A stretch of DNA of 64,000 nt from a virus: the IMG/VR virus record IMGVR_UViG_3300028840_007609. One strand, 5' to 3'. A program made the translations under genes and the position numbers. The notes under the pieces are model-generated. The model did not search any database and was not told the origin of the DNA. It saw nothing but the letters and a program-made list of their open reading frames with translations. Positions 5,281 to 38,562 of this stretch are shown here, piece by piece. Position 1 is the first letter of the stretch; each line of letters opens with the position of its first letter.

Positions 5281-5456
5281 AAGACTTGATATCGCCTGAA
5301 AATCCTAAAATCTGGGGTCGATGCCAGGCGTGCGGAGCTGAAAATCAACACACAAAAAACTGCCCGGAGTGTGAAGACATAGCGCAACGGGCAGCGCGAT
5401 TTCGCAGAAAACGTGGGGCATCCGGAAGTCCTGTCAACGCGGGGAAGAAACCCTAG
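5256..5456 (+). CDS. small zinc-ribbon protein (66 aa)
   Basis: CQAC...CPEC motifs; ends in TAG; overlaps the upstream gene by 25 nt. Confidence 0.45.
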   Translation: MERKLRSIKDLISPENPKIWGRCQACGAENQHTKNCPECEDIAQRAARFRRKRGASGSPVNAGKKP

Positions 5457-15039: not shown

Positions 15040-15267
15040 ATGTCCAAAGTACTTGGTATTAAGATGATTGAAATGTATTGTGATATCATCAGCTCAGATT
15101 TTGCGCCACTATTGCTTATGATTGAACCTATTGAGTATGCCGAGCGCAAGGCGGTTGAAGAAAACATCAAAAAATCGCTCGGGTTTGACAAGCTTGAAGC
15201 TGAAAAAGCCAAGCTGAAAAAGCGAATCAATGAAATCGATGAAATTCTCAAGGAATACACGCAGTAG
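15040..15267 (+). CDS. hypothetical coiled-coil protein, N-terminal segment ending at an in-frame TAG
   Basis: AAGGAG SD. Same frame as 15334..15528, with a single TAG between them. Confidence 0.6.
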   Translation: MSKVLGIKMIEMYCDIISSDFAPLLLMIEPIEYAERKAVEENIKKSLGFDKLEAEKAKLKKRINEIDEILKEYTQ

Positions 15268-15333
15268 AAATACATCTTCAGTGAAGGCAGGTCAAAATGG
15301 GTTTCAAAGCTTGATGAACTTGTCGACCAGCAG

Positions 15334-15528
15334 ATGAAGGGCTCTATCAGCAGCGATATAAAAGATTTGCTGGCGCAGATGAAACGTTCTATAAAGCTTT
15401 CCGGCACAGGATCTGAAGACATAAAGAAAATCTTCAACGATCTCCCGAATATTATCGCCGGTTTTCAAAAAACAATCAATAAGGCTCTGAAAAAACAAAA
15501 GCTTTTACCTCCGGTGATAAATGTCTAA
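15334..15528 (+). CDS. hypothetical protein segment (continuation of 15040 frame?)
   Basis: No SD. In frame with 15040..15267, with no other stop between them. Confidence 0.45.
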   Translation: MKGSISSDIKDLLAQMKRSIKLSGTGSEDIKKIFNDLPNIIAGFQKTINKALKKQKLLPPVINV

Positions 15529-15832
15529 ACACGGAATAGATCCCGGGCTTCTGAGCAGACACCTGTCAAGGGTGATAGTTAATGAACATGGGGAGGCTAC
15601 AACACCTTTGCGTGCATCTCAACTCGGCATAAAAATCGACTCTGTATTCATACGCAATGACGGTTGGACGCTCGGGACCCCGGACAATTTAAAAGATATT
15701 GCGTACAATTTATGGGCAGATGAATGGGTCATCTGTATCGATCTAAATCCGTTTAAAATTCATGATTTGTTTTCAATGAGAAAAAATAAAATAAACGAAA
15801 TAAATAAAACAAGGAGGAATAAAAATGGCTAA
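15521..15832 (+). CDS. hypothetical protein (103 aa)
   Basis: ORF track; overlaps the upstream stop. Confidence 0.6.
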   Translation: MSKHGIDPGLLSRHLSRVIVNEHGEATTPLRASQLGIKIDSVFIRNDGWTLGTPDNLKDIAYNLWADEWVICIDLNPFKIHDLFSMRKNKINEINKTRRNKNG

Positions 15833-16058
15833 ATCTTCCAAAATGCATCAATTGTTAGCAGTAGAAGCCGATCTGCGTGCAGCGTTCAACAAGATCCTGC
15901 AGGAATCAATGGTAACTTTTACCAAAAAGACTGACCATTTTGACGGACACGTTAAAACGCATAAGTATCTGGCAGCAGCAGATGAAGGCGTAAAGTCCCG
16001 GGTTCAGGACGAGCACAAGGCGATCGTCACAACCGTGCAGCAGAAACTGGATTACTAG
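15825..16058 (+). CDS. hypothetical protein, N-terminal segment ending at an in-frame TAG
   Basis: AAGGAGG SD. Same frame as 16104..16619. Confidence 0.6.
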   Translation: MAKSSKMHQLLAVEADLRAAFNKILQESMVTFTKKTDHFDGHVKTHKYLAAADEGVKSRVQDEHKAIVTTVQQKLDY

Positions 16059-16103
16059 ACAAAATCCGTTATCAATTATTTCGATCTTTTACTGCAGCGC
16101 GAA

Positions 16104-16619
16104 ATGACCAACCAGCTGGCCAAGGCAGATATCGTTATTGACGGCAAAACGATCATGTCGGATGTGCCGGCAACGTTTTTATTGTCAATGGAAAACCAGC
16201 TCAAGGAGCTCAGGAAAGTATACAACACGATTCCGACATACGCTCCCGGGGTTCACTGGAAAGTGGCGGCCGACAAAGGCCCCGGCATTTACGAAACTGA
16301 GTTTCCGGAAGAACGGTTCCAGACGGAAACGGTCACGGAGCCGATTGTATTGTATCCTCACAAGTTTCCGAAGGAAGGCGAAAAGGGAGAGCCGTTGGCG
16401 GCTCAGATCTCAACGACCAGTAAAACCCGCAACGTCGGTATGTACACAACGACAAAATGGACCGGCCGGTTCTCGCCGACCGAAAAATCTGAAATGCTGG
16501 GCCGTATTGACAAATTGCTTGTGGCTGTGAAAAAAGCCAGGACCAGAGCAAACAACACTGAAATTATCAACCGCAATGACAGCAAAAAAATGCTTGACTT
16601 CATTCATGGAGTTGAATAA
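16104..16619 (+). CDS. hypothetical protein segment (continuation of 15825 frame?)
   Basis: No SD. 15 sense codons separate it from the TAG at 16056-16058. Confidence 0.55.
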   Translation: MTNQLAKADIVIDGKTIMSDVPATFLLSMENQLKELRKVYNTIPTYAPGVHWKVAADKGPGIYETEFPEERFQTETVTEPIVLYPHKFPKEGEKGEPLAAQISTTSKTRNVGMYTTTKWTGRFSPTEKSEMLGRIDKLLVAVKKARTRANNTEIINRNDSKKMLDFIHGVE

Positions 16620-16800
16620 TTTTTAATTAGGCTATCATTATCGTTAATCTAATCATTAGAACGGTTTTTGTTTAAGGCGTCACAATAAAAACCTGACGTA
16701 ACAAAAACCAATCATTGTTGTTATCTTAACGCCTAACAAAATCAGGCATTTGTAATTTAATTATTAAATGGCGAATATTATTCGGGCTTGCCCGAAACTA

Positions 16801-17009
16801 ACTGGAAATCCGAGTTCGACTCTCGGTTGCCCCTCCATTATGGAGGCGCTGCTATTTTTAACGGCAAATTGGATTAGTCATCCATTGGCTTGAAAAAAAC
16901 AGAAAAGCGATGTTGGGGGGATAAGGACAAAACTCTGACAGCTTAGCAGCGCGTTTCTAAGCAGCGCCTCCATAATTGCGGGGCAATCGTCCAACGGTAG
17001 GACGCTGGT
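16801..17009 (+). ncRNA. circularly permuted tRNA-like element (T-arm half upstream of D-arm half)
   Basis: 16801-16837 carries the anticodon-stem 3' strand, T arm, acceptor 3' strand, U and CCA. 16980-17009 carries the acceptor 5' strand (7/7 complementary), D arm and anticodon-stem 5' strand. A 17-bp perfect hairpin lies between them. Confidence 0.55.
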
Positions 17010-17075
17010 TTTAGTCATCTTAAATAAATTTGCGCATTTAAAATAAATTGCAGCCAAATCCATTTTGTTTCCGAT

Positions 17076-17151
17076 TTAAATATAGCTCAAATGGTAGAGC
17101 ATTGGGCTTATAACCCAAAGGTCGCGGGTTCGATTCCCGCTATTTAATCCA
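17076..17151 (+). tRNA. tRNA-Ile (anticodon UAU), CCA encoded
   Basis: Hand-folded cloverleaf. Acceptor TTAAATA/TATTTAA, D arm GCTC-AAATGGTA-GAGC, anticodon arm TTGGG-CTTATAA-CCCAA, T arm GCGGG-TTCGATT-CCCGC. Confidence 0.8.
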
Positions 17152-17175
17152 ACTATGTGGATAAAACAATGGGAC

Positions 17176-17212
17176 GGGCGGCTGCAAGGAAAGGTAGCCG
17201 CCCAACTTTTTT
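17176..17212 (+). terminator. rho-independent terminator
   Basis: GGGCGGCT / AGCCGCCC stem followed by T6. Confidence 0.75.
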
Positions 17213-17431: not shown

Positions 17432-17843
17432 AAACAAAGAAAATTTTTTATTTTTTATATCAGAGGCCAAATACTGGATAAGTGATTTTGGCCTTTTTGA
17501 TTGGAACATACATTTTACCACGGAAGAACCTCCAAGTAATATATTAAACGACGATACTGACTTTGGATATCTTGCCTGGTACCAGGCTGTTGAATCAAAT
17601 AAAGCAGCAAGAATCGGGCTTAGCCTCGAAACAGAAAAAGATTCTCAAAAAAGCATTGCAAAAGCTGCATTTCATGAAGTATGTGAAATTTTACTACATC
17701 CGCTGGAAGGTTTTGCAAGATGTGATGCTGCACCATCAACAACAGATGCAATTATAACTGAAAAACACACTGTTATCAGAAGGCTTGAAAAAACAATATT
17801 CGAGCCGTACTGGCAAAAAAGGACATTACACCATGGGGATTGA
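17415..17843 (+). CDS. hypothetical protein with HExxH motif (142 aa)
   Basis: The HEVCEILLH motif suggests a zinc-metallopeptidase-like fold. Confidence 0.55.
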   Translation: MMNQDKNKENFLFFISEAKYWISDFGLFDWNIHFTTEEPPSNILNDDTDFGYLAWYQAVESNKAARIGLSLETEKDSQKSIAKAAFHEVCEILLHPLEGFARCDAAPSTTDAIITEKHTVIRRLEKTIFEPYWQKRTLHHGD

Positions 17844-18438
17844 ACAGCCAGCAACTTTTTATGATGGAATGTATACACGCCGCGAAAAATATTTTGGCGA
17901 CTATACGAAAAATTCATGCTTTAAATGCGGATTATGGCCGGCGGCAGTCAAGCATTTAAATAACAATGACGTTATTTTTGAAGCCGGGTGTGGATCCGGA
18001 CAATTTGCCCAGTATGTATATACAAAAGTAAAGCCAAAATCATACTTTGGCATTGATTTTAGCCCGGTTGCAATCGAACTTGCCTTAAATAAAGCCCCGC
18101 TTGGAATTTTTCTTGTTCGCGATCTTACGGATGATGACGACATCTCTTTCAGGCTCCAAAAATTCAATGTTTTTGTTGCACTGGAATTTCTGGAACACAT
18201 CAACGAAGACCTGAAAATTCTGAACAAAGTAAAAGCCCTCGACAGAAAAATCAAGGTTATTACATCTGTTCCTGATTTTAACTCAGCCGGACACGTTCGC
18301 CATTTTAAATCAGAACAAAAAATTCGCAATCGCTATGAATCGATCATAAACAACCTTGAAATTGAATATTTTGGTGGCCGATGGCTGATGATTGGAGAAA
18401 TCAATACAAAAAAAAGTCAAACTAAAATCTTCGATTGA
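17833..18438 (+). CDS. class I SAM-dependent methyltransferase
   Basis: Motif I is FEAGCGSGQFA. ORF 17785..18438; the ATG at 17833 overlaps the upstream stop. Confidence 0.8.
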   Translation: MGIEQPATFYDGMYTRREKYFGDYTKNSCFKCGLWPAAVKHLNNNDVIFEAGCGSGQFAQYVYTKVKPKSYFGIDFSPVAIELALNKAPLGIFLVRDLTDDDDISFRLQKFNVFVALEFLEHINEDLKILNKVKALDRKIKVITSVPDFNSAGHVRHFKSEQKIRNRYESIINNLEIEYFGGRWLMIGEINTKKSQTKIFD

Positions 18439-18583
18439 CAATATAGTCAGTTTTTGGCCAACAGAAGAATCTCTGTTTGAAATATTGGCTCAAATTGGGT
18501 ACACATCGGCTTATAAAATCATGGTCCCGCATGAGCCGAACAAACCAAAAGACAGAATCACAATTTTGGCATTAAATTCATGA
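18392..18583 (+). CDS. small ORF (63 aa), possible methyltransferase C-terminal remnant
   Basis: TTG start. Reached from the methyltransferase frame across an A8 run (18408-18415). Confidence 0.3.
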   Translation: MEKSIQKKVKLKSSIDNIVSFWPTEESLFEILAQIGYTSAYKIMVPHEPNKPKDRITILALNS

Positions 18584-19473
18584 AAATAGCTTTTCTGATG
18601 CGCAGCAGATGGGGTGACCGGACGCAGTTTGGCGTTGTGTCAAAGACGTGTGCAAAGCAGTTTTTCTGGGACCCTGTATCAGCGGTAAGGGATATAAACC
18701 AGTTCAATCCTGATTTTTTGTTTGTAAACAAGCAATATGATATCAATGTAATCGAAAAGCTGGTTGAAAAGTATCCCATGGCTTATTTTTTGGGAGATTA
18801 TCGCTATCCATTACCACAGAGTATCGTAAGGCTTCTAAATTATGCAAAAATAGGATTTTTTACATGGAAAAAGCCCGATATAAATAATACATGGCCAAAA
18901 ATTAAATTAGTTCACCAGGGAGCCAACCCCAACGTTTATAAGGCTAATCCAAGAATAGAAAAAAAATATGACGTTATTTTTGCAGGAAATAACTGGGGTT
19001 CAGGTCTAAGAATGCAAACAGTAACGTTTTTAAATAACAATTTCAACTTTTTAGCCATTGGTGACGGCTGGCCGAAGAACATAAATTCACTCACACGTCG
19101 TCGGGCAGGCTCAGTGCCAAGGTATTATTCCCAGGCATATATAACCGTTGGCATTATGAACAGAACAGATTTTAGTAAAAACGACGTTACACATTATACG
19201 TCAAACAGACTTTTTAACTGTATGGCCATGGGAATTCCACATATAGCTCCAAGGCAAGCTTTAGTACACACTTTGTTTAAAAAAGGCTACCAGGATTGGG
19301 CCACACATCAGGAATTAGCAGATAAAATTAATTTATTTTTAAAGAATAAAAAACACGCCAAAAATGTAGGCAGGCTGCAACGTGAAGAAGTTTTAAACAA
19401 CCACACAACACTGCACGCCTGGCTAAGAATGGAAGATAAAATCAGACAATGCCTACATTCAATGAAATCGTAA
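18580..19473 (+). CDS. glycosyltransferase-like protein (GT1/CgeB-like)
   Basis: The C-terminal pattern YDVIFAGNNWG...NRLFNCMAMGIPHIA resembles the GT-B C-domain. Call by pattern only. Confidence 0.5.
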   Translation: MKIAFLMRSRWGDRTQFGVVSKTCAKQFFWDPVSAVRDINQFNPDFLFVNKQYDINVIEKLVEKYPMAYFLGDYRYPLPQSIVRLLNYAKIGFFTWKKPDINNTWPKIKLVHQGANPNVYKANPRIEKKYDVIFAGNNWGSGLRMQTVTFLNNNFNFLAIGDGWPKNINSLTRRRAGSVPRYYSQAYITVGIMNRTDFSKNDVTHYTSNRLFNCMAMGIPHIAPRQALVHTLFKKGYQDWATHQELADKINLFLKNKKHAKNVGRLQREEVLNNHTTLHAWLRMEDKIRQCLHSMKS

Positions 19474-20270
19474 AATTTATCCAAACACTCTATAATGGAA
19501 AATGCCTTAATTTTTCTGACGATTCAAAGATTCTGCAAATATCGTCGATAAACGATGCCAACCATCCACAAACACTTACCTGGGTCAACTCAACTGAAAA
19601 ACTACAGGAAAAACCGTTTACTGCCGGCCTTGTAATAGCCCCAAAACACGCATTTTATTATGAAAAAACCATATGTGTCGACAACCCGAAATATGTCCTT
19701 GCGATGGTGCTTAAAAAATTTTTTACGAATCTTGCTGAAAACAAGCATGCAATTGCAAAAAAATCTTTTAGGATTGGAGACAACTCTAGTATTGTAAACA
19801 CTTATATGGGGACAAATTGCCACATAGGAGCAAACTGCTCAATTGGATACCCCGGGATAAACATAGCAAGGGACAATAATAATAATTTCACAGATTTTTT
19901 ACATATAGGAACAGTTGAAATTGGAGATCATGTAAAAATAGGAAATAATGTATGCATCCAGCGTGCTATATTTGGAAAAACAAGAATTTTACATTATTCA
20001 ACAATAGGCAGCCTTGTAAATATTGGACACAACTGTGAAATAGGCCGTGAAGTTGTTATAATCAATGGAGCAATTATTTGCGGCAGCGTAAAAATTGGTG
20101 ACGGTTCATGTATAGGTGCTGGGGCAATAATCAGAAATAAAGTTAAAATTGGCAAAAATGTAACTGTAGGCGCCGGTTCTGTGGTGTTGAAGGACATTCC
20201 GGACAACAAAAAAGTTATAGGCAACCCGGCACGCATAATTAAATCAACAAAGGAGTATCCTCCAAAATGA
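19449..20270 (+). CDS. hexapeptide-repeat (left-handed beta-helix) acyl/acetyltransferase
   Basis: Many [LIV]-G-x4 repeats (IGANCSIG, IGDHVKIGNNV, IGHNCEIG, IGDGSCIGAGA); GNPARI tail. Confidence 0.75.
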   Translation: MPTFNEIVKFIQTLYNGKCLNFSDDSKILQISSINDANHPQTLTWVNSTEKLQEKPFTAGLVIAPKHAFYYEKTICVDNPKYVLAMVLKKFFTNLAENKHAIAKKSFRIGDNSSIVNTYMGTNCHIGANCSIGYPGINIARDNNNNFTDFLHIGTVEIGDHVKIGNNVCIQRAIFGKTRILHYSTIGSLVNIGHNCEIGREVVIINGAIICGSVKIGDGSCIGAGAIIRNKVKIGKNVTVGAGSVVLKDIPDNKKVIGNPARIIKSTKEYPPK

Positions 20271-20767
20271 TAGATCCGACATCATGGATCGCGCCTGGCG
20301 TTAAAATCTTACGCTCAACTAATATAGGAAAATTTTGCATATTAAAATCTGGTATTTATATCGGAGAAAATTGCAATATAAAAAATTATGTTCTAATATC
20401 AGAAAATGTTTCTATTTTTAATGATGTTTTTATTGACAGTTACGTTAAATTTTCCGAAAAATGTGTTATAGGCAACAATGTAACGTTAAGATACAATGCA
20501 ACTGTGGCCAGGAATGTACGAATTTCAAACAATGTATTCATAGCACCAAATGTAATGATGATTTACGATGACTACAAATTCCATAAAAAAGGACCAACAT
20601 TGATAGGGGAAGGGGCCTTTATAGGCGCGAATTCAGTTCTGGGACCATCTGTTATTATAGGAAAAAATGTTATTATTGGTGCAATGTCTTTTGTAACAAA
20701 AAATTGTATTGAGCCAGGGACATATTTTGGAAGTCCGGCAAAATTAATCAAAAAATTAAAGAAATAA
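20267..20767 (+). CDS. hexapeptide-repeat acetyltransferase
   Basis: Repeated IGENCNI / IGNNVTL / IGANSVLG / IGKNVIIGA hexapeptides. Confidence 0.7.
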   Translation: MIDPTSWIAPGVKILRSTNIGKFCILKSGIYIGENCNIKNYVLISENVSIFNDVFIDSYVKFSEKCVIGNNVTLRYNATVARNVRISNNVFIAPNVMMIYDDYKFHKKGPTLIGEGAFIGANSVLGPSVIIGKNVIIGAMSFVTKNCIEPGTYFGSPAKLIKKLKK

Positions 20768-20768
20768 A

Positions 20769-21395
20769 ATGCTTAACAATTTTAAAAAAGTATTAGTACT
20801 GTGCCCACACCCAGACGACGAAATTGGATGTGCTGGCACTTTAAGCAGATTTTCAGCTGAATTTGAAGTAAACATGCATGCTATATTTTTTAGTCGATGT
20901 GAAGTTGAGCCGCATATATCAGGTTCTGGAAGGGAAGAAGAAGGGCGTAAAAGCATGAACGTTCTCGGCATAAAACACATTTCTTTCTGGAATCACCACG
21001 TAAGAAGCTTCTATAAAGATCGACAAATAATTCTTGAAAGACTAATCGCGAAAAAAAACGAGTTTAACCCAGACTTTATTTTGTTGCCATGTCCAAACGA
21101 TATGCATCAAGACCATGAAGTTGTTTATAAAGAAGGGTTGCGAGCATTTAAACATACAAACATTTTTGGATATGAAATGCCTCAAAACTTAAGGTTTTTT
21201 AAAAACACGGCATTTGTTGAAATCTCGCAAAAAAATCTTGACGAAAAAATAAAAGCACTGCAAAACCATAAGTCACAAATGAAAAAAACCTACATGCAAC
21301 CTGAATTTATAAAAGCCCTTGCAGTAATCAGAGGGATGCAAGCAGGCGTGCAATACGCCGAAGCATTTGATGTTATACGCCTTGTTATAAAATAA
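20769..21395 (+). CDS. PIG-L/LmbE family deacetylase
   Basis: VLCPHPDDEIGCAG and HQDH motifs. Confidence 0.85.
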   Translation: MLNNFKKVLVLCPHPDDEIGCAGTLSRFSAEFEVNMHAIFFSRCEVEPHISGSGREEEGRKSMNVLGIKHISFWNHHVRSFYKDRQIILERLIAKKNEFNPDFILLPCPNDMHQDHEVVYKEGLRAFKHTNIFGYEMPQNLRFFKNTAFVEISQKNLDEKIKALQNHKSQMKKTYMQPEFIKALAVIRGMQAGVQYAEAFDVIRLVIK

Positions 21396-25523: not shown

Positions 25524-25586
25524 GAAAGCTTGGTTACCGACTAAGAAAGCTTGGTCGCTGACTAAGAAAGCTTGGTCACTGACTAA
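25524..25586. repeat. 3 x 21-bp tandem repeat (GAAAGCTTGGTNNCNGACTAA)
   Basis: Read directly from the sequence. Each unit carries a TAG in the portal frame on the minus strand. Confidence 0.9.
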
Positions 25587-33734: not shown

Positions 33735-33871
33735 TCAAATGCACCAAGTGTGGCGAAGAAGTTCATGTGGCTAAGGTAACAAAGAATCACGAAAGGTTGT
33801 GTTGTAACTGCGATCCTGATAGAAAAATGAAATTAAAAGAAAAAGAAAAGAATGCTAATATATCTAAATGA
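33731..33871 (+). CDS. small zinc-ribbon protein (46 aa), TTG start
   Basis: Hand-translated; CTKC...CCNC motifs. Its stop overlaps the endolysin ATG. Confidence 0.3.
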   Translation: MIKCTKCGEEVHVAKVTKNHERLCCNCDPDRKMKLKEKEKNANISK

Positions 33872-34275
33872 TTCTTCATTATTCTGAAATAAAAATCTGG
33901 GAATGGAATAATTTCAGCCCGGACGAGCCAAATCTGGCATGTCCATGCTGCGGTCAATTCTATTATGATATTGTTTCAATGGATTGTCTGCAAACTGCCA
34001 GGGAGATTATAGACAAGCCCATAAGGATAAATTCGGGACACAGGTGCGCTATCCATAATGCAAGGGTCGGCGGAGTTCCTTTGTCCCAGCACAAAAAGAT
34101 AGCCTTTGATATTAATCTCCTTGGCCATGACCGTTACGAAGTATTTGAAGCCTGCAAAAAGGCTGGATTTGGAAGCTTTGGTTTTTATAAAACATTTTTA
34201 CACGTTGATATTAGATCAAACCGAAATTGGTTCGGGAAAGGAGCAAAGGGATTATGGACTGGGCTGCTATCTTAG
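33868..34275 (+). CDS. endolysin, peptidase M15A-like (D-Ala-D-Ala carboxypeptidase fold)
   Basis: SGHRC..HN...GG...SQH...AFD...FLHVD metal-binding pattern; ends in TAG. Confidence 0.75.
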   Translation: MILHYSEIKIWEWNNFSPDEPNLACPCCGQFYYDIVSMDCLQTAREIIDKPIRINSGHRCAIHNARVGGVPLSQHKKIAFDINLLGHDRYEVFEACKKAGFGSFGFYKTFLHVDIRSNRNWFGKGAKGLWTGLLS

Positions 34276-34775
34276 GAACAGCCGCAAGTGTAGGTTCCGG
34301 GGGAGTATTTGGGCTTGTAGGATCTCTGATAGGATCAATAGGAAAACACTTTCAGGAGAAACAACGGCAGGATTTCTTACAAAAAGAATGGGAACATGAG
34401 ACAGTCTTGCTAAGGCTGAACATGGAAGCCAAGGCTCAGGAGACAGAGCAGGAACTCGCCATTGTTTCCCAACAGGGGTCTTGGGCAGGATTATCAGAAT
34501 CCATTAAGGCAGACGCCGCTCCTGTCAAGGTCCACATTTGGGTGAACGATATCAAGTCCTTATTCCGTCCGTTTTTAACGATTATGTTGTGGCTTGTCTC
34601 TGGTTGGATATTCTACAGCCTTGGCAAAGGAGGCTTTGACAAATGGGTAACGGCAGGTGAAACCGCTGGACTTATTAAATACATGGTTTATTCTTCTTTC
34701 TTTTCAGCATCAACAGCAACAACATGGTGGTTCGGAGACAGAGCATTATCACCGCCGGGACACAAAAACAGATGA
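34254..34775 (+). CDS. holin-like membrane protein
   Basis: Gly-rich N-terminal TM segment and two C-terminal TM segments; adjacent to and overlapping the endolysin. Confidence 0.6.
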   Translation: MDWAAILGTAASVGSGGVFGLVGSLIGSIGKHFQEKQRQDFLQKEWEHETVLLRLNMEAKAQETEQELAIVSQQGSWAGLSESIKADAAPVKVHIWVNDIKSLFRPFLTIMLWLVSGWIFYSLGKGGFDKWVTAGETAGLIKYMVYSSFFSASTATTWWFGDRALSPPGHKNR

Positions 34776-34930
34776 AGCCAATTACGATCATAGAAAATGC
34801 TTTTCATAATATAATTAAGGCGTTAAAGGACGGAATGTTTACCCTTGATGAACTTCTTTTCATCAAGAAAATGTGTATGGGTATTGTTAAGGCAACAGAT
34901 AGTTTACTTCTTAAAATAGGAGGAAGATAA
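34772..34930 (+). CDS. hypothetical protein (52 aa)
   Basis: ATGA coupling; ORF 34724..34930. Confidence 0.45.
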   Translation: MKPITIIENAFHNIIKALKDGMFTLDELLFIKKMCMGIVKATDSLLLKIGGR

Positions 34931-37900
34931 TGGCCTTTAAAGGCCTCTCAGCCAAACAAATAAACCCAACTGAAACTCCAGAACTATTTCATCTTGGGAG
35001 ACAAGTTGACCCGTCTGTATTTCGGATTGATGCTGAATATAGCATTGGAGACGTGGTTACTTTCGGTGTTTATCATTTCTCTTCCAAGGTAGATAACAAT
35101 ATTGGAAATGCTCCTGATGTAGATTATAATGAAACATACTGGAGAGCAATTCCTAAAAACGCTGTCAAACAAGTCTATGACTTAGATACAGGAGAGTTGA
35201 TTTCTACCACTATCTATGATGCAACTTCCCTTGATGTTTCCTCAGAATTTAATGAAGGCATTGCTATCCGCAAAATGGCAGTTGGCGGAGACACCCAGGA
35301 TGTCCATGTCTATGATGATATTACGAAACTCTACCGTAACAATGATCTCGTTTGTGAATCCAAGGTTTACATGGACAAGAAGTCTCTTGCTTGGGAGAAT
35401 TACAACTTCGGCAAGACTACAGTAGAGAAAACAGACATTGGAGCTAAAGCCTCTAAGGATATAACCCCAAACAGCTTCAAGGTTGAAATCGACTCTGATG
35501 GTGGCGACCCGAAAACAACAAGAGTAAATAAGCAGAAGTACACCTTACAGGGAGATGCTGGAGACATCATTCGTTGTCGTTGGGAATTAAAGGCTTATAC
35601 TCTTGACGATTTAATTCTTGACTACTCTGACTATAAAGGCAACACTTCAGATACTGGATGGGTTTATAATGAAGCGGAGGAGTATTGGGAACGAACCATC
35701 ATCTTTGAGCCTGATGGAGTAATCGGGCAATTAACGATTGATCCTTACTTATCAATAACAGAACCAGCAAATTTTGTTGATGTAACTTGTGACGGATTTC
35801 TTTTCTCTTTGAGGACTGCGTCAAATACCTCATATGGCTTTCACCTTTACAATCTGGCAAAAACTGATAATTTTGGAACTCTTGGTTTTGGTTTGGGTGT
35901 TTCAATTAGTGGTGGCAACGATTACTTTACAGGCCGTGACCCAAATAAAGAAGTGATTATACAGGAAGACACTCCATCAAGAGTTGTTTTAAAATTGGCC
36001 TGCAATCTCTATGATACAACACCAACCGTTCTTGACAGTGATGATACAGTTGAAGTTATTTTTACTATATATCCTGATCGAGTTATTCAGCATGTTAAAT
36101 GGGTTAGTAATGCAAACCATACCCTTGACTCATCCTCGGGCAATCGTGTGGGATTTGGTCTTGGTTTCAGTAATCCTGTTGAAGAAAATGAAGATGATTA
36201 TGATGCTATGCTCGGAGACGAGGTGAATTTAATGATGATAGATGTTTATCATACAGATGATTCTCTCTTTAGGAAATATCATACAACGACTCAGCTTCAG
36301 TCAGATTGGTATAACGGAACAATAAATGCAGGAACGCATGAAATGGTTCTTTGTTGGATCATCGACTCCGCAGAGCGTGAAGGTGGTAAGCAGTATGATG
36401 GGAGTCAATATACGGCCAATGAAAAGTTCTCCGATGATTTCAGCGTAGGCAGTGTTCTCGGTTCTGATTGGGCGAATTTTGGCTCTCAAAATTTTGTTAT
36501 TGATAATGAGCAAGCAAAAGCAGGAACTACTTGGGACAACTGTATGGCTTATTATGATACTGAGTCTTTGAGTGATGATCATTGGGTGAAAGCTGATGTT
36601 AAAAATGAAGTTGATAGCAATGCGGAATGCGGTCTTTTCTGTCGATATCATGCAGTCAATGATACTGGATACTGTGTTTATTTTGGGACAAGTGGAAATA
36701 TAATAATTCGCTCATGGAATGGCTCAAATTTTACCTATGAAGACGAAAATACAACTCAATATCCGGCAGGCGTTTATGAAATAATGGTCAAAATTGTTGG
36801 AGATACATTACACCTTTATATTGATGATGTATTTAAAGAAGCTTTTGATATTAGCGGTTTCGCTAACTATTATTCGTCCGGCGGCTATGCTGGAATGAGG
36901 GCTGATTCTTCTTCCTCCCTTTATCCATATATTGACAATTTTTCCTGTGGTATCTTCTCCGCAGATGATCGACTCGCAATCGGAGCACATATAAAAGCAT
37001 CTGCTGATGGAGATGAAGATGCAACCATCAATACAGGTTCAGAGGTTACAGATCAAAATATCCCTGATATTCTCAACTCAGATGACGGCTTTGCTGCTGA
37101 TTTAGCAAGATGGATAGATCATGCAAGCAATGTGGTAAAATTGACCTTTCCGCAAACGGAGTACTTCCCCGCCGTTGTTCTCCCTAATTGGGGCATCAGA
37201 ACAGGAACGGTTGGAAGTGCTACGGAGCATTTGATTGGTCATTGGAAGTGTGATGATAATGCGGCGAGTACGACTATATCTGCAACAGTTGGGAGTGGTG
37301 TTGCTTTAGTTGGTGGAGACAATACTGAAGACAAATCTTCTTCTGATGCAGTTAGAGGAACATCGTTGCTTTTAAATGGAACTGATGATGGTATTAATCT
37401 GCTCGGTGGGGATAATGCCATAAACGATCTTTCGTCAGAAGATGAGTGGACAATTTTAATCACCGCAAAAGCTAATTTTTCTGTGGGAGACGGAGATCAA
37501 GGATTATTTGGCGCTTATGGTGGTGGGGATTATGTGCAGATAGACTTTAATGATACAGGAGATCAAGTATACTTTCGTAATTTATTAGGCTCTTTGAATG
37601 AGTCTATAATATCTCCTGTTATGACCAGTAATGAATTACAACAATTTAATGTTTATGGTCTTCATTTGAATGCAACAGAAGGGGTAATGTATGCAAGTAT
37701 AAACGGAAAAATTATAGGGGCAGTAAATGGCACAATGACTTGGGCTGGCTCTATTTCCATTTGTGAAATTGGGATTACTCCATTTAATACATATGGTGCT
37801 TGGTATATTGACGAAGTAAAACTTTACAACGGCTGCCTCCTGCCCAACACAGCATATTTCACAGGCAATGGAGAAGTTAATACGGATGTTGCTCATACTG

Positions 37901-38562
37901 ATTTACTTTGCTACTTGGATTTTGAAGGTGCAACTGAAACAATAAGAAAGACTTGTAAAATAAGCGTAGTTGAGGGCAGTCTTAACGGTTCAGCCGCAAT
38001 AAATACAGATGCGGTGGTTGTAAGCACTTATGGGTTCGATTCTGGTGGAACTTTTAATGATTATTTTTCTATAACAGTTACATCAAGCAACATAATAAAC
38101 CCCAAAAAAGGAAGCATTTCAATGATAATTAATTTTAATGCTTCCGTAGCTAATTATACACCTTTTTGGGGGTTTGGAGATGCTGATGATTATATACGGT
38201 TAACTACCGGCAATGGAGTAATAATTGCTCAATATAGGAGCCAGTCAACAACTGAAGCAGTTACAGGATCAATCAGCATCTCTACAAATACTGTTTATTT
38301 TATTAAAATGGATTGGGACGATGCTGACGGAGACGGTATATTAGAACTTTTTATAAATAACATATCAGAAGGAACAGACACAATCGCCAATGCGTGGGAT
38401 GGTATAACTTCTGGAACTATGTATTTTGGAACTGATTATGGTACTGGATCGGGGCAAGACATTTGGATAGATCAAGTCTTCATCACCTCCGACCCCAACA
38501 CTCCCCAAATCCCGACAATCTTCGGCACTCCGATTCATGTACCTTTATTGAGGACAGGATAA
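34930..38562 (+). CDS. giant virion-associated protein with LamG/concanavalin-like domains (1210 aa)
   Basis: Uninterrupted ORF. LamG-type signatures YIDEVKLYNG and WIDQVFITS. The N-terminal motif Y.IGD.V.....Y......W is CBM5/12-like. Confidence 0.8.
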   Translation: MAFKGLSAKQINPTETPELFHLGRQVDPSVFRIDAEYSIGDVVTFGVYHFSSKVDNNIGNAPDVDYNETYWRAIPKNAVKQVYDLDTGELISTTIYDATSLDVSSEFNEGIAIRKMAVGGDTQDVHVYDDITKLYRNNDLVCESKVYMDKKSLAWENYNFGKTTVEKTDIGAKASKDITPNSFKVEIDSDGGDPKTTRVNKQKYTLQGDAGDIIRCRWELKAYTLDDLILDYSDYKGNTSDTGWVYNEAEEYWERTIIFEPDGVIGQLTIDPYLSITEPANFVDVTCDGFLFSLRTASNTSYGFHLYNLAKTDNFGTLGFGLGVSISGGNDYFTGRDPNKEVIIQEDTPSRVVLKLACNLYDTTPTVLDSDDTVEVIFTIYPDRVIQHVKWVSNANHTLDSSSGNRVGFGLGFSNPVEENEDDYDAMLGDEVNLMMIDVYHTDDSLFRKYHTTTQLQSDWYNGTINAGTHEMVLCWIIDSAEREGGKQYDGSQYTANEKFSDDFSVGSVLGSDWANFGSQNFVIDNEQAKAGTTWDNCMAYYDTESLSDDHWVKADVKNEVDSNAECGLFCRYHAVNDTGYCVYFGTSGNIIIRSWNGSNFTYEDENTTQYPAGVYEIMVKIVGDTLHLYIDDVFKEAFDISGFANYYSSGGYAGMRADSSSSLYPYIDNFSCGIFSADDRLAIGAHIKASADGDEDATINTGSEVTDQNIPDILNSDDGFAADLARWIDHASNVVKLTFPQTEYFPAVVLPNWGIRTGTVGSATEHLIGHWKCDDNAASTTISATVGSGVALVGGDNTEDKSSSDAVRGTSLLLNGTDDGINLLGGDNAINDLSSEDEWTILITAKANFSVGDGDQGLFGAYGGGDYVQIDFNDTGDQVYFRNLLGSLNESIISPVMTSNELQQFNVYGLHLNATEGVMYASINGKIIGAVNGTMTWAGSISICEIGITPFNTYGAWYIDEVKLYNGCLLPNTAYFTGNGEVNTDVAHTDLLCYLDFEGATETIRKTCKISVVEGSLNGSAAINTDAVVVSTYGFDSGGTFNDYFSITVTSSNIINPKKGSISMIINFNASVANYTPFWGFGDADDYIRLTTGNGVIIAQYRSQSTTEAVTGSISISTNTVYFIKMDWDDADGDGILELFINNISEGTDTIANAWDGITSGTMYFGTDYGTGSGQDIWIDQVFITSDPNTPQIPTIFGTPIHVPLLRTG

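What the first reader, a model, noticed from the sequence alone, without database searches (positions are those of the whole stretch)
15825..16619. Gene split by a single in-frame TAG directly upstream of the tRNA region
ORFs 15825..16058 and 16104..16619 share a frame. They are separated by one TAG (16056-16058) and 15 sense codons with no other stop. The upstream part has a strong AAGGAGG SD, while the ATG at 16104 has none, although almost every gene here has an obvious SD or start/stop coupling. Read through, it gives one 264-aa protein (...QQKLDY-X-TKSVINYFDLLLQREMTNQLAK...). By my count TAG is the rarest stop here, closing 6 of about 100 called ORFs (5456, 15267, 16058, portal at 25583, 34275, 51499). 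The long structural ORFs have no internal TAG, so this is not genome-wide recoding. Possible explanations are programmed readthrough, host- or phage-supplied amber suppression (including Pyl-decoding hosts), or a recent nonsense mutation.
Basis: partly seen in the sequence, partly recalled or inferred. Interest (0 to 1): 0.65.

Follow-up and report, generated by a model that had tools for sequence, protein, structure and literature searches.

The report
Amber-interrupted partner gene of tRNA-mimic RNA
One phage gene of a widespread unknown family (DUF7873) is cut in two by a single TAG stop codon, and following it up shows that this gene family always sits just upstream of an unannotated tRNA-shaped RNA related to bacterial Y RNAs.

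Summary
ORFs 15825..16058 and 16104..16619 share a frame and are separated by one TAG and 15 sense codons. The two parts match consecutive stretches of one Pfam family, DUF7873 (profile 2-69 and 87-242; fused 2-242, E=1e-61). Every one of more than 240 homologues examined is one contiguous ~250-aa protein. The three closest homologues have Gln at the TAG position, so one CAG→TAG change explains it.

The TAG falls inside a conserved helix. The internal ATG product would lose 15 conserved residues, so the full protein needs readthrough. Otherwise the gene is a null allele. The window shows no genome-wide recoding, no CUA tRNA and no stimulatory structure.

A second candidate amber interruption lies two genes upstream (15265-15267). 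Both in-frame TAGs are followed by A, while the four terminal TAGs are followed by T or G. I narrowly favour leaky or host-suppressed readthrough (0.45) over a plain nonsense mutation (0.35). This remains unresolved.

The larger result concerns the "tRNA region" (16726-17075). It is a circularly permuted tRNA mimic (T arm, acceptor stem-loop, D arm). It is found downstream of DUF7873 in 80 of 85 loci and matches Rfam YrlA below threshold. No Ro60 gene is present.

The parts
15810..15816 (+). Shine-Dalgarno AAGGAGG of the DUF7873 gene
   Evidence: Read directly from the sequence. It lies 8 nt upstream of ATG 15825.
15825..16055 (+). N-terminal 77 codons of the DUF7873 gene
   Evidence: Pfam PF25283, profile positions 2-69, E=1.5e-9, 38.4 bits against a cut-off of 27.
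16056..16058 (+). In-frame amber codon TAG, followed by A
   Evidence: It aligns with Gln in the three closest homologues P0002-P0004. It lies inside predicted helix 68-91 of the family model.
16059..16103 (+). 15 sense codons (TKSVINYFDLLLQRE) between the TAG and the internal ATG. This is conserved coding sequence of the family.
   Evidence: It aligns with the family motif RYFDALLQKE, including the near-invariant D87 and K92 and the invariant E93. In-frame codon log-likelihood is 3.38, typical of real genes in this window.
16104..16619 (+). C-terminal 171 codons of the DUF7873 gene plus TAA stop. There is no SD before ATG 16104.
   Evidence: Pfam PF25283, profile positions 87-242, E=7.9e-42. 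All invariant family residues are present.
15040..15528 (+). Second candidate amber-interrupted ORF. ATG 15040 has an SD. TAG at 15265-15267 is followed by A, then 86 in-frame codons ending in an overlap (ATGTCTAA) with the next gene.
   Evidence: The 22-codon stretch after the TAG scores as coding in frame (LLR 6.07, reached by only 2.7% of stop-free intergenic windows). It has no homologues anywhere, so there is no homology test.
16726..16745 (+). Conserved 5' motif of the RNA locus (TTAACGCCTAACAAAATCAG; family consensus TTGmCCC-N-CAG-NN-T-N-AG)
   Evidence: Alignment A3 has invariant A, T and A columns. The window copy was matched by eye, and its role (promoter or RNA 5' element) is not determined.
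16801..16837 (+). First half of the permuted tRNA mimic: stem strand 16801-05, variable loop 16806-09, T arm 16810-26 (CCGAG TTCGACT CTCGG), acceptor 3' strand 16827-33, U73 at 16834, CCA at 16835-37
   Evidence: The family shows covariation.
16838..16979 (+). 142-nt structured hairpin closing the acceptor stem (17-bp perfect helix ATTATGGAGGCGCTGCT / AGCAGCGCCTCCATAAT)
   Evidence: Comparable long inserts occur in L038, L052, L044, L004 and L012. Most family members have 3-45 nt here.
16980..17075 (+). Second half of the mimic: acceptor 5' strand GGGGCAA 16980-86, D arm 16989-17003, stem strand 17005-09, then the strand that pairs with 16735-16800 to form a long rod
   Evidence: whole-locus fold z=-5.6; cofold z=-3.9.
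17076..17151 (+). tRNA-shaped element, called tRNA-Ile (UAU), with an AT-rich acceptor stem
   Evidence: ARAGORN and Rfam, 76.6 bits. The equivalent element in other loci has variable, often non-decoding anticodon loops.
17176..17212 (+). Intrinsic terminator ending the RNA locus
   Evidence: 10-bp stem with 8 GC pairs, then a T run.

Best explanation
15825-16619 is a single DUF7873 gene carrying one amber codon. The codon most likely arose from CAG (Gln) by a C-to-T change.

Shown: the two halves belong to one family, all homologues are contiguous, and the TAG sits inside a conserved helix.

Inferred: in the natural host the UAG is read through at some frequency. This could be weak termination at UAG-A with near-cognate decoding, or a host amber-suppressor tRNA, most simply inserting Gln. 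The result would be mostly the 77-aa fragment plus a reduced amount of full-length 264-aa protein. The same would apply to the neighbouring ORF 15040-15528.

The protein is the conserved gene partner of the permuted, YrlA-like tRNA-mimic RNA encoded immediately downstream. From the strict gene linkage I infer that it binds or acts on that RNA. The amber codon would then throttle production of the protein half of this RNA-protein pair.
For: - **One gene:** Pfam places the halves at profile 2-69 and 87-242, and the fusion at 2-242 with E=1e-61.
- **Contiguous homologues:** 158 homologues of ~250 aa cover 97-99% of the fused sequence. Eighty viral loci have no internal TAG, and neither do 13 further loci.
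- **Ancestral codon:** the three closest homologues have Gln at the TAG column.
- **No further decay:** there are no other stops or frameshifts, and all invariant residues are kept.
- **Internal ATG is unsuitable:** it has no SD and would delete 15 conserved residues of helix 68-91.
- **Second case:** a second in-frame TAG two genes upstream has the same layout, with a coding-like spacer.
- **Context:** both in-frame TAGs are followed by A. The four terminal TAGs are followed by T, T, G and G. From my own recollection of work on E. coli (Poole, Brown and Tate 1995), termination strength by fourth base runs U > G > A ~ C.
- **Allele frequency:** the TAG allele is the only one on record, on 5 contigs and at least 2 samples. 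No full-length near-identical variant exists in 5.8 billion clusters.
Against: - None of more than 240 homologues carries a stop here, and the column is variable, so this is not a conserved recoding site.
- No suppressor tRNA is present in the 64 kb window.
- No stable structure follows either TAG (z = +0.24 and -0.33).
- Four genes, including the portal gene, end in TAG, so efficient suppression would extend them.
- The second TAG case has no homologues at all. Same-frame neighbours separated by one stop are common in this window, so that case could be two ordinary genes.
- The base rate favours ordinary nonsense alleles in accessory phage genes.
- All contigs carrying the allele are identical, so they give no independent evolutionary test.
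Confidence: 0.45

Rival explanations
1. This is a plain nonsense mutation. A recent CAG-to-TAG change inactivated an accessory gene, only the 77-aa fragment is made, and the rest of the ORF has not yet decayed.
For: The interruption is unique among more than 240 homologues. The site is a variable column that holds Gln in the closest relatives, so one transition is enough. There is no recoding signal, suppressor tRNA or downstream structure. DUF7873 occurs sporadically across unrelated phages, so it is probably dispensable. The RNA partner in this window is atypical: it has a 142-nt insert and reads CCAA where many members have the CGAA-type motif.
Against: There is no second lesion in 186 downstream codons. 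A second possible in-frame stop nearby is also TAG rather than the TAA expected more often in a 42% GC genome. Both are in the weak TAG-A context. The allele is the consensus in every contig on record. Long inserts in the RNA also occur next to intact DUF7873 genes.
Confidence: 0.35
2. The gene is a functional split. The 77-aa N-terminal peptide and a 171-aa protein reinitiated at ATG 16104 are both made and assemble into an active protein.
For: Gene callers call both ORFs. ATG 16104 lies 45 nt after the stop, within reach of termination-reinitiation.
Against: ATG 16104 has no SD. The 15 untranslated codons encode the conserved YFD..LLQ.E part of helix 68-91, including near-invariant and invariant residues. 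The break lies inside a helix of the helical bundle, not at a domain boundary. No homologue is split.
Confidence: 0.07
3. The TAG is a sequencing or assembly artefact, and the real genome has a sense codon.
For: A single-base difference would be enough.
Against: The same base appears in an independently built Logan assembly. The 171-aa product was called on 5 contigs from at least 2 samples. No full-length near-identical protein exists in the database.
Confidence: 0.03
4. The phage reassigns TAG (code-15-like TAG=Gln or a phage-encoded suppressor), or ribosomes bypass the stop as in T4 gene 60.
For: Gln is the ancestral residue at the site.
Against: Only one or two in-frame TAGs occur in 64 kb, both in the early region rather than in late genes. 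Long ORFs do not lengthen when TAG is read as sense. Four genes terminate at TAG. No CUA tRNA is present. Bypassing would delete conserved residues that align colinearly with homologues.
Confidence: 0.02

Closest known systems
Amber (UAG) nonsense alleles of phage genes that depend on host suppressors or leaky termination (classical phage amber mutants on supE/supF hosts; natural readthrough products such as the Qbeta A1 protein)
   Same: A single in-frame stop sits in an otherwise intact gene, and the full-length product is possible only by suppression. The likely inserted residue (Gln) equals the ancestral residue. The fourth base, A, gives a weak context.
   Different: This is a natural metagenomic genome, not a laboratory mutant. 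The stop is not conserved in any relative and has no stimulatory structure, unlike evolved programmed readthrough. Qbeta uses UGA and makes a functional extension, whereas here the short product is a non-domain fragment.
Stop-codon-recoded phages (TAG read as Gln, with phage suppressor tRNAs and in-frame stops concentrated in late genes)
   Same: There is an in-frame TAG at a Gln position in a phage gene.
   Different: There are only one or two sites, both in the early/replication region. TAG is still used as a terminator, including for the portal gene. There is no suppressor tRNA, and ORF lengths do not change under TAG=sense.
YrlA / bacterial Y RNA-like tRNA mimics (Rfam RF02553; Chen et al. 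2014, PMC4201824)
   Same: The RNA downstream of DUF7873 has the YrlA order T arm, acceptor stem-loop, D arm, with the 5' and 3' ends forming a long stem. Relatives match RF02553 full-length at 32-49 bits. Many members carry a CGAA-type motif in the stem bulge. A 7-bp acceptor stem followed by N-CCA recalls M. smegmatis YrlA, which is cut by RNase P and carries CCA.
   Different: All scores fall below Rfam's gathering score of 69, and none of the 11 loci scanned at gathering threshold hit. The neighbouring gene is DUF7873, not Ro60/TROVE, and no TROVE protein was found among the window's large ORFs. The RNA is usually followed by a second tRNA-shaped element. The window's copy has a 142-nt insert in the acceptor loop.
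Two-piece tmRNA from circularly permuted ssrA genes (alpha-proteobacteria, cyanobacteria)
   Same: The gene order is permuted: the T arm and 3' acceptor strand with CCA lie upstream of the 5' acceptor strand, and the intervening segment would be removed by tRNA-end processing.
   Different: The third acceptor pair is G3-C70, not G3:U70. A true D stem is present. There is no tag reading frame or pseudoknots. ARAGORN and the Rfam tmRNA models find nothing.

Membership tests
Pfam DUF7873 (PF25283) | Profile match above the gathering score (27 bits) | tested here: met
   The N part scores 38.4 bits, the C part 144.1 bits, and the fusion 209.1 bits with E=1.1e-61.
Pfam DUF7873 (PF25283) | One uninterrupted ~250-aa reading frame covering the whole profile | tested here: not met
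   The profile is covered at 2-242 only if TAG 16056-58 is read through. All homologues are uninterrupted.
Pfam DUF7873 (PF25283) | Permuted tRNA-like RNA immediately downstream on the same strand (a feature found here, not part of the Pfam definition) | tested here: met
   The window element lies at 16801-17009. Covariance model R1 scores at least 46 bits downstream of the gene in 80 of 85 loci.
Stop-codon-recoded phage (TAG sense) | Many in-frame TAGs, with ORFs lengthening when TAG is read as sense | tested here: not met
   The longest ORFs are unchanged. Only two plausible in-frame sites exist.
Stop-codon-recoded phage (TAG sense) | Phage-encoded suppressor tRNA with CUA anticodon | tested here: not met
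   ARAGORN finds only Ile-UAU. The whole window at E<=1 gives no other tRNA-like match. About 3 kb of the contig lies outside the window.
Stop-codon-recoded phage (TAG sense) | TAG not used as a terminator | tested here: not met
   The ORFs ending at 5456, 25583 (portal), 34275 and 51499 stop at TAG with only short extensions beyond.
Programmed stop-codon readthrough | Stop codon conserved at the same site in homologues | tested here: not met
   No internal TAG occurs in 80 viral loci, 13 other loci or 158 database proteins.
Programmed stop-codon readthrough | Stimulatory RNA structure or defined context downstream of the stop | tested here: inconclusive
   No stable fold is predicted (z = +0.24 and -0.33). 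Both sites share only the weak fourth base A.
YrlA / Y RNA-like (Rfam RF02553) | Score at or above the Rfam gathering threshold (69 bits) | tested here: not met
   The window gives no hit even at E<=10. Relatives score 32.4-48.7 bits. None of 11 loci hit at gathering threshold.
YrlA / Y RNA-like (Rfam RF02553) | T arm, acceptor-like stem-loop and D arm in that order, enclosed by a stem formed from the 5' and 3' ends | tested here: met
   In the family, 93% of cells are paired and the covariation score is 0.865 against 0.22 for shuffled controls. The enclosing stem, which was not used for selection, is 73% paired with all 5 pairs covarying.
YrlA / Y RNA-like (Rfam RF02553) | Encoded next to a Ro60 (TROVE) gene | tested here: not met
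   The neighbour is DUF7873. No TROVE hit was found among the large ORFs scanned or in the Logan contig's gene table. The DUF7873 model has no Ro60-like fold match.
YrlA / Y RNA-like (Rfam RF02553) | GNCGAA-type motif in the bulge of the terminal stem (Ro60 binding) | tested here: inconclusive
   Many relatives have CA(A/G)(C/T)GAA(A/C)G on the 3' strand. The window has CAGCCAAAT at the corresponding place.
YrlA / Y RNA-like (Rfam RF02553) | RNase P cleavage and a CCA end (shown for M. smegmatis YrlA only) | not testable with these tools
   The sequence prerequisites are present: a 7-bp acceptor stem, and N73-CCA in 54 of 62 distinct elements in an unbiased scan. Processing itself needs an experiment.
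Two-piece (permuted) tmRNA | G3:U70 pair, tag reading frame, pseudoknots | tested here: not met
   The pair is G3-C70. ARAGORN's tmRNA search finds nothing, and there is no tmRNA-family match at E<=10.

The most novel reading that the evidence does not exclude
DUF7873 is the dedicated protein partner of a Ro60-independent class of phage Y-RNA-like tRNA mimics. RNase P would cut these RNAs into a two-piece, CCA-ended molecule. In this phage, synthesis of the partner protein (and of a neighbouring protein) would be gated by amber codons, so the RNA-protein complex would form only where UAG is suppressed. The first part alone (a real, undescribed DUF7873-RNA pair) I rate at about 0.6. The full reading, including a functional amber gate, is rated below.
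Probability: 0.15. Interest if true: 0.8.

Novelty: new variant of a known kind. Interest (0 to 1): 0.6.

Why it matters
For the TAG itself, a wild phage carrying one or two amber-interrupted genes would point to a natural host with appreciable UAG readthrough. It would also offer a simple, testable case of expression set by a stop codon.

For the locus, the finding gives the first functional handle on DUF7873. The family is present in cultured Rhizobium, Vibrio, Klebsiella, Serratia and Gordonia phages, where it is always annotated as hypothetical. It is tied to an unannotated RNA that is a divergent relative of YrlA.

Y RNAs have so far been defined by their Ro60 partner, and what binds the tRNA-like module of YrlA is an open question. 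A large Ro60-less branch with a different, strictly linked protein makes that question directly testable.

Tried and rejected
**Searches that found nothing**
- PHROGs, NCBIfam and PADLOC gave nothing useful for DUF7873.
- A sequence search of the PDB, and Foldseek of a confident AlphaFold model (pLDDT 90.5) against PDB and BFVD, gave no fold match.
- I found no close relatives of this phage that could show whether the TAG is conserved. Searches covered the phage collection, IMG/VR, JGI metagenomes and GTDB genomes. The only other contig is 100% identical.
- Neither the word-index search nor a full HMMER scan of 1.84 billion representatives found homologues of the second TAG-split ORF.
- Literature searches for DUF7873, the SRA run, and permuted or phage tRNA-like RNAs found no description of this module.

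**Readings considered and rejected**
- The permuted element is not a suppressor tRNA. No junction gives a canonical CUA anticodon loop, and the CUA at 16798-16800 is not conserved in the family.
- It is not a two-piece tmRNA (G3-C70, no tag ORF).
- It is not an attP remnant, because both halves and the compensating acceptor stem are conserved in more than 80 loci.
- Other in-frame TAG pairs (6380, 8932, and sites on the minus strand) look like off-frame or shadow ORFs.

**Left unresolved**
- Host inference failed. The large terminase is about 35% identical to Firmicutes phage proteins, while some tail proteins resemble those of proteobacterial phages.
- Conserved protein neighbours of DUF7873 were sought, and none recurs apart from the RNA.
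Full report
**1. The observation**

The sequence is as described. ATG 15825 follows AAGGAGG (15810-15816). The ORF ends at TAG 16056-16058. Fifteen sense codons follow (16059-16103). ATG 16104 has no Shine-Dalgarno sequence, and the frame stays open to TAA 16617-16619. Read through, the product is 264 residues.

Reading TAG as sense does not lengthen the long ORFs. A separately assembled Logan contig (SRR6963591) is 100% identical over 10.6 kb and carries the same TAG. The 171-aa product is on record on five contigs. That makes a sequencing error unlikely, but it adds no independent evolutionary sample.

**2. One gene or two**

It is one gene.
- Against Pfam, the N part matches DUF7873 (PF25283) at profile positions 2-69. 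The C part matches 87-242, and the fusion matches 2-242 of 244 at E=1.1e-61.
- A search of 5.8 billion protein clusters returned 158 homologues. Those listed are about 245-266 aa and cover 97-99% of the fused query. The only short entry is the window's own 171-aa product.
- Eighty IMG/VR loci encode contiguous relatives with no internal TAG. The same holds for 2 JGI and 11 GTDB loci.
- In the alignment the TAG falls in a variable column. The three closest homologues (51-57% identity) have Gln there: KLKYQAKSIV against the window's KLDY*TKSVI. A single CAG-to-TAG transition is therefore enough.
- The 15 codons between the TAG and the internal ATG encode the family's conserved YFD-LLQ-E stretch. 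All invariant residues of the family are intact.

**3. Where the stop falls in the protein**

An AlphaFold model of the closest homologue, built with 36 aligned sequences, is confident (mean pLDDT 90.5). The TAG corresponds to Gln75, in the middle of helix 68-91. The internal ATG corresponds to residue 91, at the end of that helix.

A two-polypeptide solution would therefore delete two thirds of a conserved helix. I consider it unlikely. The gene either needs readthrough or is a null allele.

The fold has no match in PDB or BFVD and no sequence match to solved structures.

**4. Readthrough or plain nonsense mutation**

Evidence against evolved recoding:
- The stop is unique to this lineage.
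- No tRNA other than Ile-UAU is detectable in the window, even at E<=1.
- No stable structure follows the stop.
- Four other genes, including the portal gene, terminate at TAG.

Evidence for tolerated readthrough:
- A second candidate lies two genes upstream. ATG 15040 has an SD and the ORF stops at TAG 15265-15267. The frame then continues for 86 codons to a stop that overlaps the next gene's start. The first ATG in that stretch (15334) has no SD.
- The 22 codons right after that TAG score as in-frame coding sequence (log-likelihood 6.07). Real-gene windows have a median of 4.5, the off-frame 95th percentile is 0.7, and only 2.7% of stop-free intergenic windows reach this value.
- This ORF has no homologues at all. 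Same-frame neighbours separated by one TAA or TGA are common in the window. The second case is therefore suggestive, not proven.
- Both in-frame TAGs are followed by A. The four terminal TAGs are followed by T, T, G and G. From my own knowledge of E. coli work, A is a weak fourth base for termination.

Weighing base rates against these points, I put readthrough or suppression in the native host at 0.45 and a plain null allele at 0.35. The sequence data available cannot settle it.

**5. What the gene is attached to**

The "tRNA region" is more than a tRNA. Between 16801 and 17009 the + strand carries the following, in order:
- a T arm (CCGAG TTCGACT CTCGG);
- a 3' acceptor strand (TTGCCCC), then U and CCA;
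- a 142-nt hairpin;
- the matching 5' acceptor strand (GGGGCAA);
- a canonical D arm, and a 5-nt strand that pairs back to 16801-16805.

This is a circularly permuted cloverleaf without an anticodon loop. The flanks (about 16735-16800 and 17010-17060) form a long rod. The whole-locus fold has z=-5.6 and the cofold has z=-3.9. ARAGORN, including its permuted-tmRNA search, and Rfam at E<=10 do not recognise it.

The two closest DUF7873 contigs have the same element with a 15-16-nt loop in place of the 142-nt hairpin.

**6. The RNA is a family, strictly linked to DUF7873**

- A pattern scan found the element about 110-250 nt downstream of the DUF7873 stop in most of the 80 IMG/VR loci, with many different but always complementary acceptor stems.
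- RNAalifold on 36 sequences recovers the T arm, the 7-bp acceptor stem and the D arm.
- With my structure on 41 sequences, 93% of cells pair, and the covariation score is 0.865 against 0.22 in shuffles. Slid controls pair at 35-49%.
- The T and acceptor stems were selected to pair, so their 100% pairing is by construction. The enclosing stem was not selected on. It is 73% paired, and all five of its pairs covary.
- A covariance model built from these sequences scores at least 46 bits downstream of DUF7873, on the same strand, in 80 of 85 loci. About half of those loci were not in the seed. Weaker hits are junctions between tandem tRNAs.
- An unbiased scan finds CCA after the discriminator in 54 of 62 distinct elements. 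The others have CTA, CCT, CAA, CAT or CCG.
- No other protein recurs next to DUF7873.
- DUF7873 occurs in 73 cultured-phage records (Rhizobium, Vibrio, Gordonia, Klebsiella, Serratia and others), always annotated as hypothetical. In Rhizobium phage RHph_TM30 it sits inside the tRNA island, and the unannotated 455-nt gap downstream holds the element.
- It is nearly absent from 185,579 species genomes. There were 11 hits, all on small MAG contigs.

**7. What the RNA resembles**

Its topology is that of YrlA, the bacterial Y-RNA-like tRNA mimic. In YrlA the T arm, an acceptor-like stem-loop and the D arm follow in that order, and the ends form the Ro60-binding stem. M. smegmatis YrlA has a 7-bp acceptor stem, is cut by RNase P and carries CCA (PMC4201824).

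Rfam's YrlA model (RF02553) matches seven tested DUF7873-linked RNAs full-length but below threshold, at 32.4-48.7 bits against a gathering score of 69. None of 11 loci passes at gathering threshold. Many members carry a CA(A/G)(C/T)GAA(A/C)G motif on the 3' strand of the rod. This is close to the CGAA-type motif used for Ro60 binding. The window's copy reads CAGCCAAAT at that place.

The partner gene differs from YrlA's. No TROVE/Ro60 protein was found among the window's large ORFs.

In the window and in at least 22 other loci, a tRNA-shaped element follows the RNA, starting about 72-96 nt after the 5' acceptor strand. It has an AT-rich acceptor stem and widely varying anticodon loops: UAU, AUA, AUU, AAC, UUA, and loops of 6 or 8 nt. 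It may be a structural module or a processing signal rather than a decoder.

I found no paper describing DUF7873 or this arrangement.

**8. How it most likely works**

Shown:
- 15825-16619 is one DUF7873 gene with one amber codon inside a conserved helix.
- It lies directly upstream of a conserved, divergent YrlA-type RNA.

Inferred:
- The protein binds or acts on that RNA, by analogy with Ro60 and Y RNA and from the strict linkage. Its C-terminal helix is rich in Lys and Arg (KKARQRAN).
- The RNA is processed at its tRNA-like ends, given the 7-bp acceptor stem and the CCA.
- In this phage the amber codon reduces or abolishes the protein. If there is readthrough, Gln insertion would restore the ancestral sequence.
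- Nothing indicates that the RNA itself decodes UAG. No junction gives a CUA anticodon loop, and the CUA at 16798-16800 is not conserved.

**9. Verdict**

The single-gene interpretation is supported, and the mechanism is undecided between leaky or suppressed readthrough and a null allele. On its own, the TAG is a modest finding.

The context it exposed is the part worth pursuing. This is a widespread, unannotated, Ro60-less YrlA-like RNA paired with DUF7873. I class it as a new variant of a known kind.

Noticed in passing
window 16726-17075 (with 17076-17212): The intergenic 'tRNA region' is a circularly permuted tRNA mimic of the YrlA type, with a 142-nt hairpin in its acceptor loop. A tRNA-shaped element and a terminator follow it. 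The same RNA lies downstream of DUF7873 in 80 of 85 loci and is absent from Rfam at gathering threshold.
   Followed up: yes
window 15040-15528 (TAG at 15265-15267): This is a second possible amber-interrupted ORF, two genes upstream of the finding. It has an SD-led 75-codon part, then TAG-A, then 86 in-frame codons without an SD that end in an overlap with the next gene. The spacer scores as coding, but the ORF has no homologues anywhere.
   Followed up: partly
window 17076-17151; L007, L009, L003, L010, L056, L037, L074 and others: The tRNA-shaped element after the YrlA-like RNA has AT-rich acceptor stems and usually no encoded CCA. Its anticodons are very variable: UAU in the window; AUA, AUU, AUG, AAC, UUA ('stop'), and 2- or 4-nt 'anticodons' elsewhere. 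It may not be a decoding tRNA.
   Followed up: partly
window 25583 (minus strand) and 34275: Two of the four genuine TAG terminators (the portal gene and the ORF ending at 34275) are followed by a second in-frame TAG 6 and 5 codons later.
   Followed up: no
window 33868-34775, upstream of the 1210-aa ORF at 34930-38562: Two overlapping ORFs (33868..34275 and 34227/34254..34775) lie in the position of tail assembly chaperones before the presumed tape-measure gene. A GGGAAAG run sits at 34234-34240, but the second ORF also has its own SD and ATG. A frameshift was not assessed.
   Followed up: no
window 17785-21395: Directly after the RNA locus comes a cluster of sugar- or modification-type genes: methyltransferase, glycosyltransferase, two hexapeptide acyltransferases and a PIG-L deacetylase. 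The two closest DUF7873 contigs (L082, L083) also have sugar-modifying genes (epimerase, glycosyltransferase 4) in that position.
   Followed up: no
L017 5995-6006: In one IMG/VR relative, the DUF7873 reading frame has TAA at the conserved Glu/Gln-9 codon (YH*LLAVEGD) and another TAA three codons earlier. No canonical start lies downstream. This may be another damaged or unusually started copy.
   Followed up: partly
L086 (Rhizobium phage RHph_TM30, NC_070966.1 133927-135142): In a cultured 207-kb phage, DUF7873 sits inside the tRNA island. The 455-nt gap after it is unannotated and contains the permuted tRNA-like RNA (model R1 69.8 bits; YrlA 35.9 bits).
   Followed up: partly
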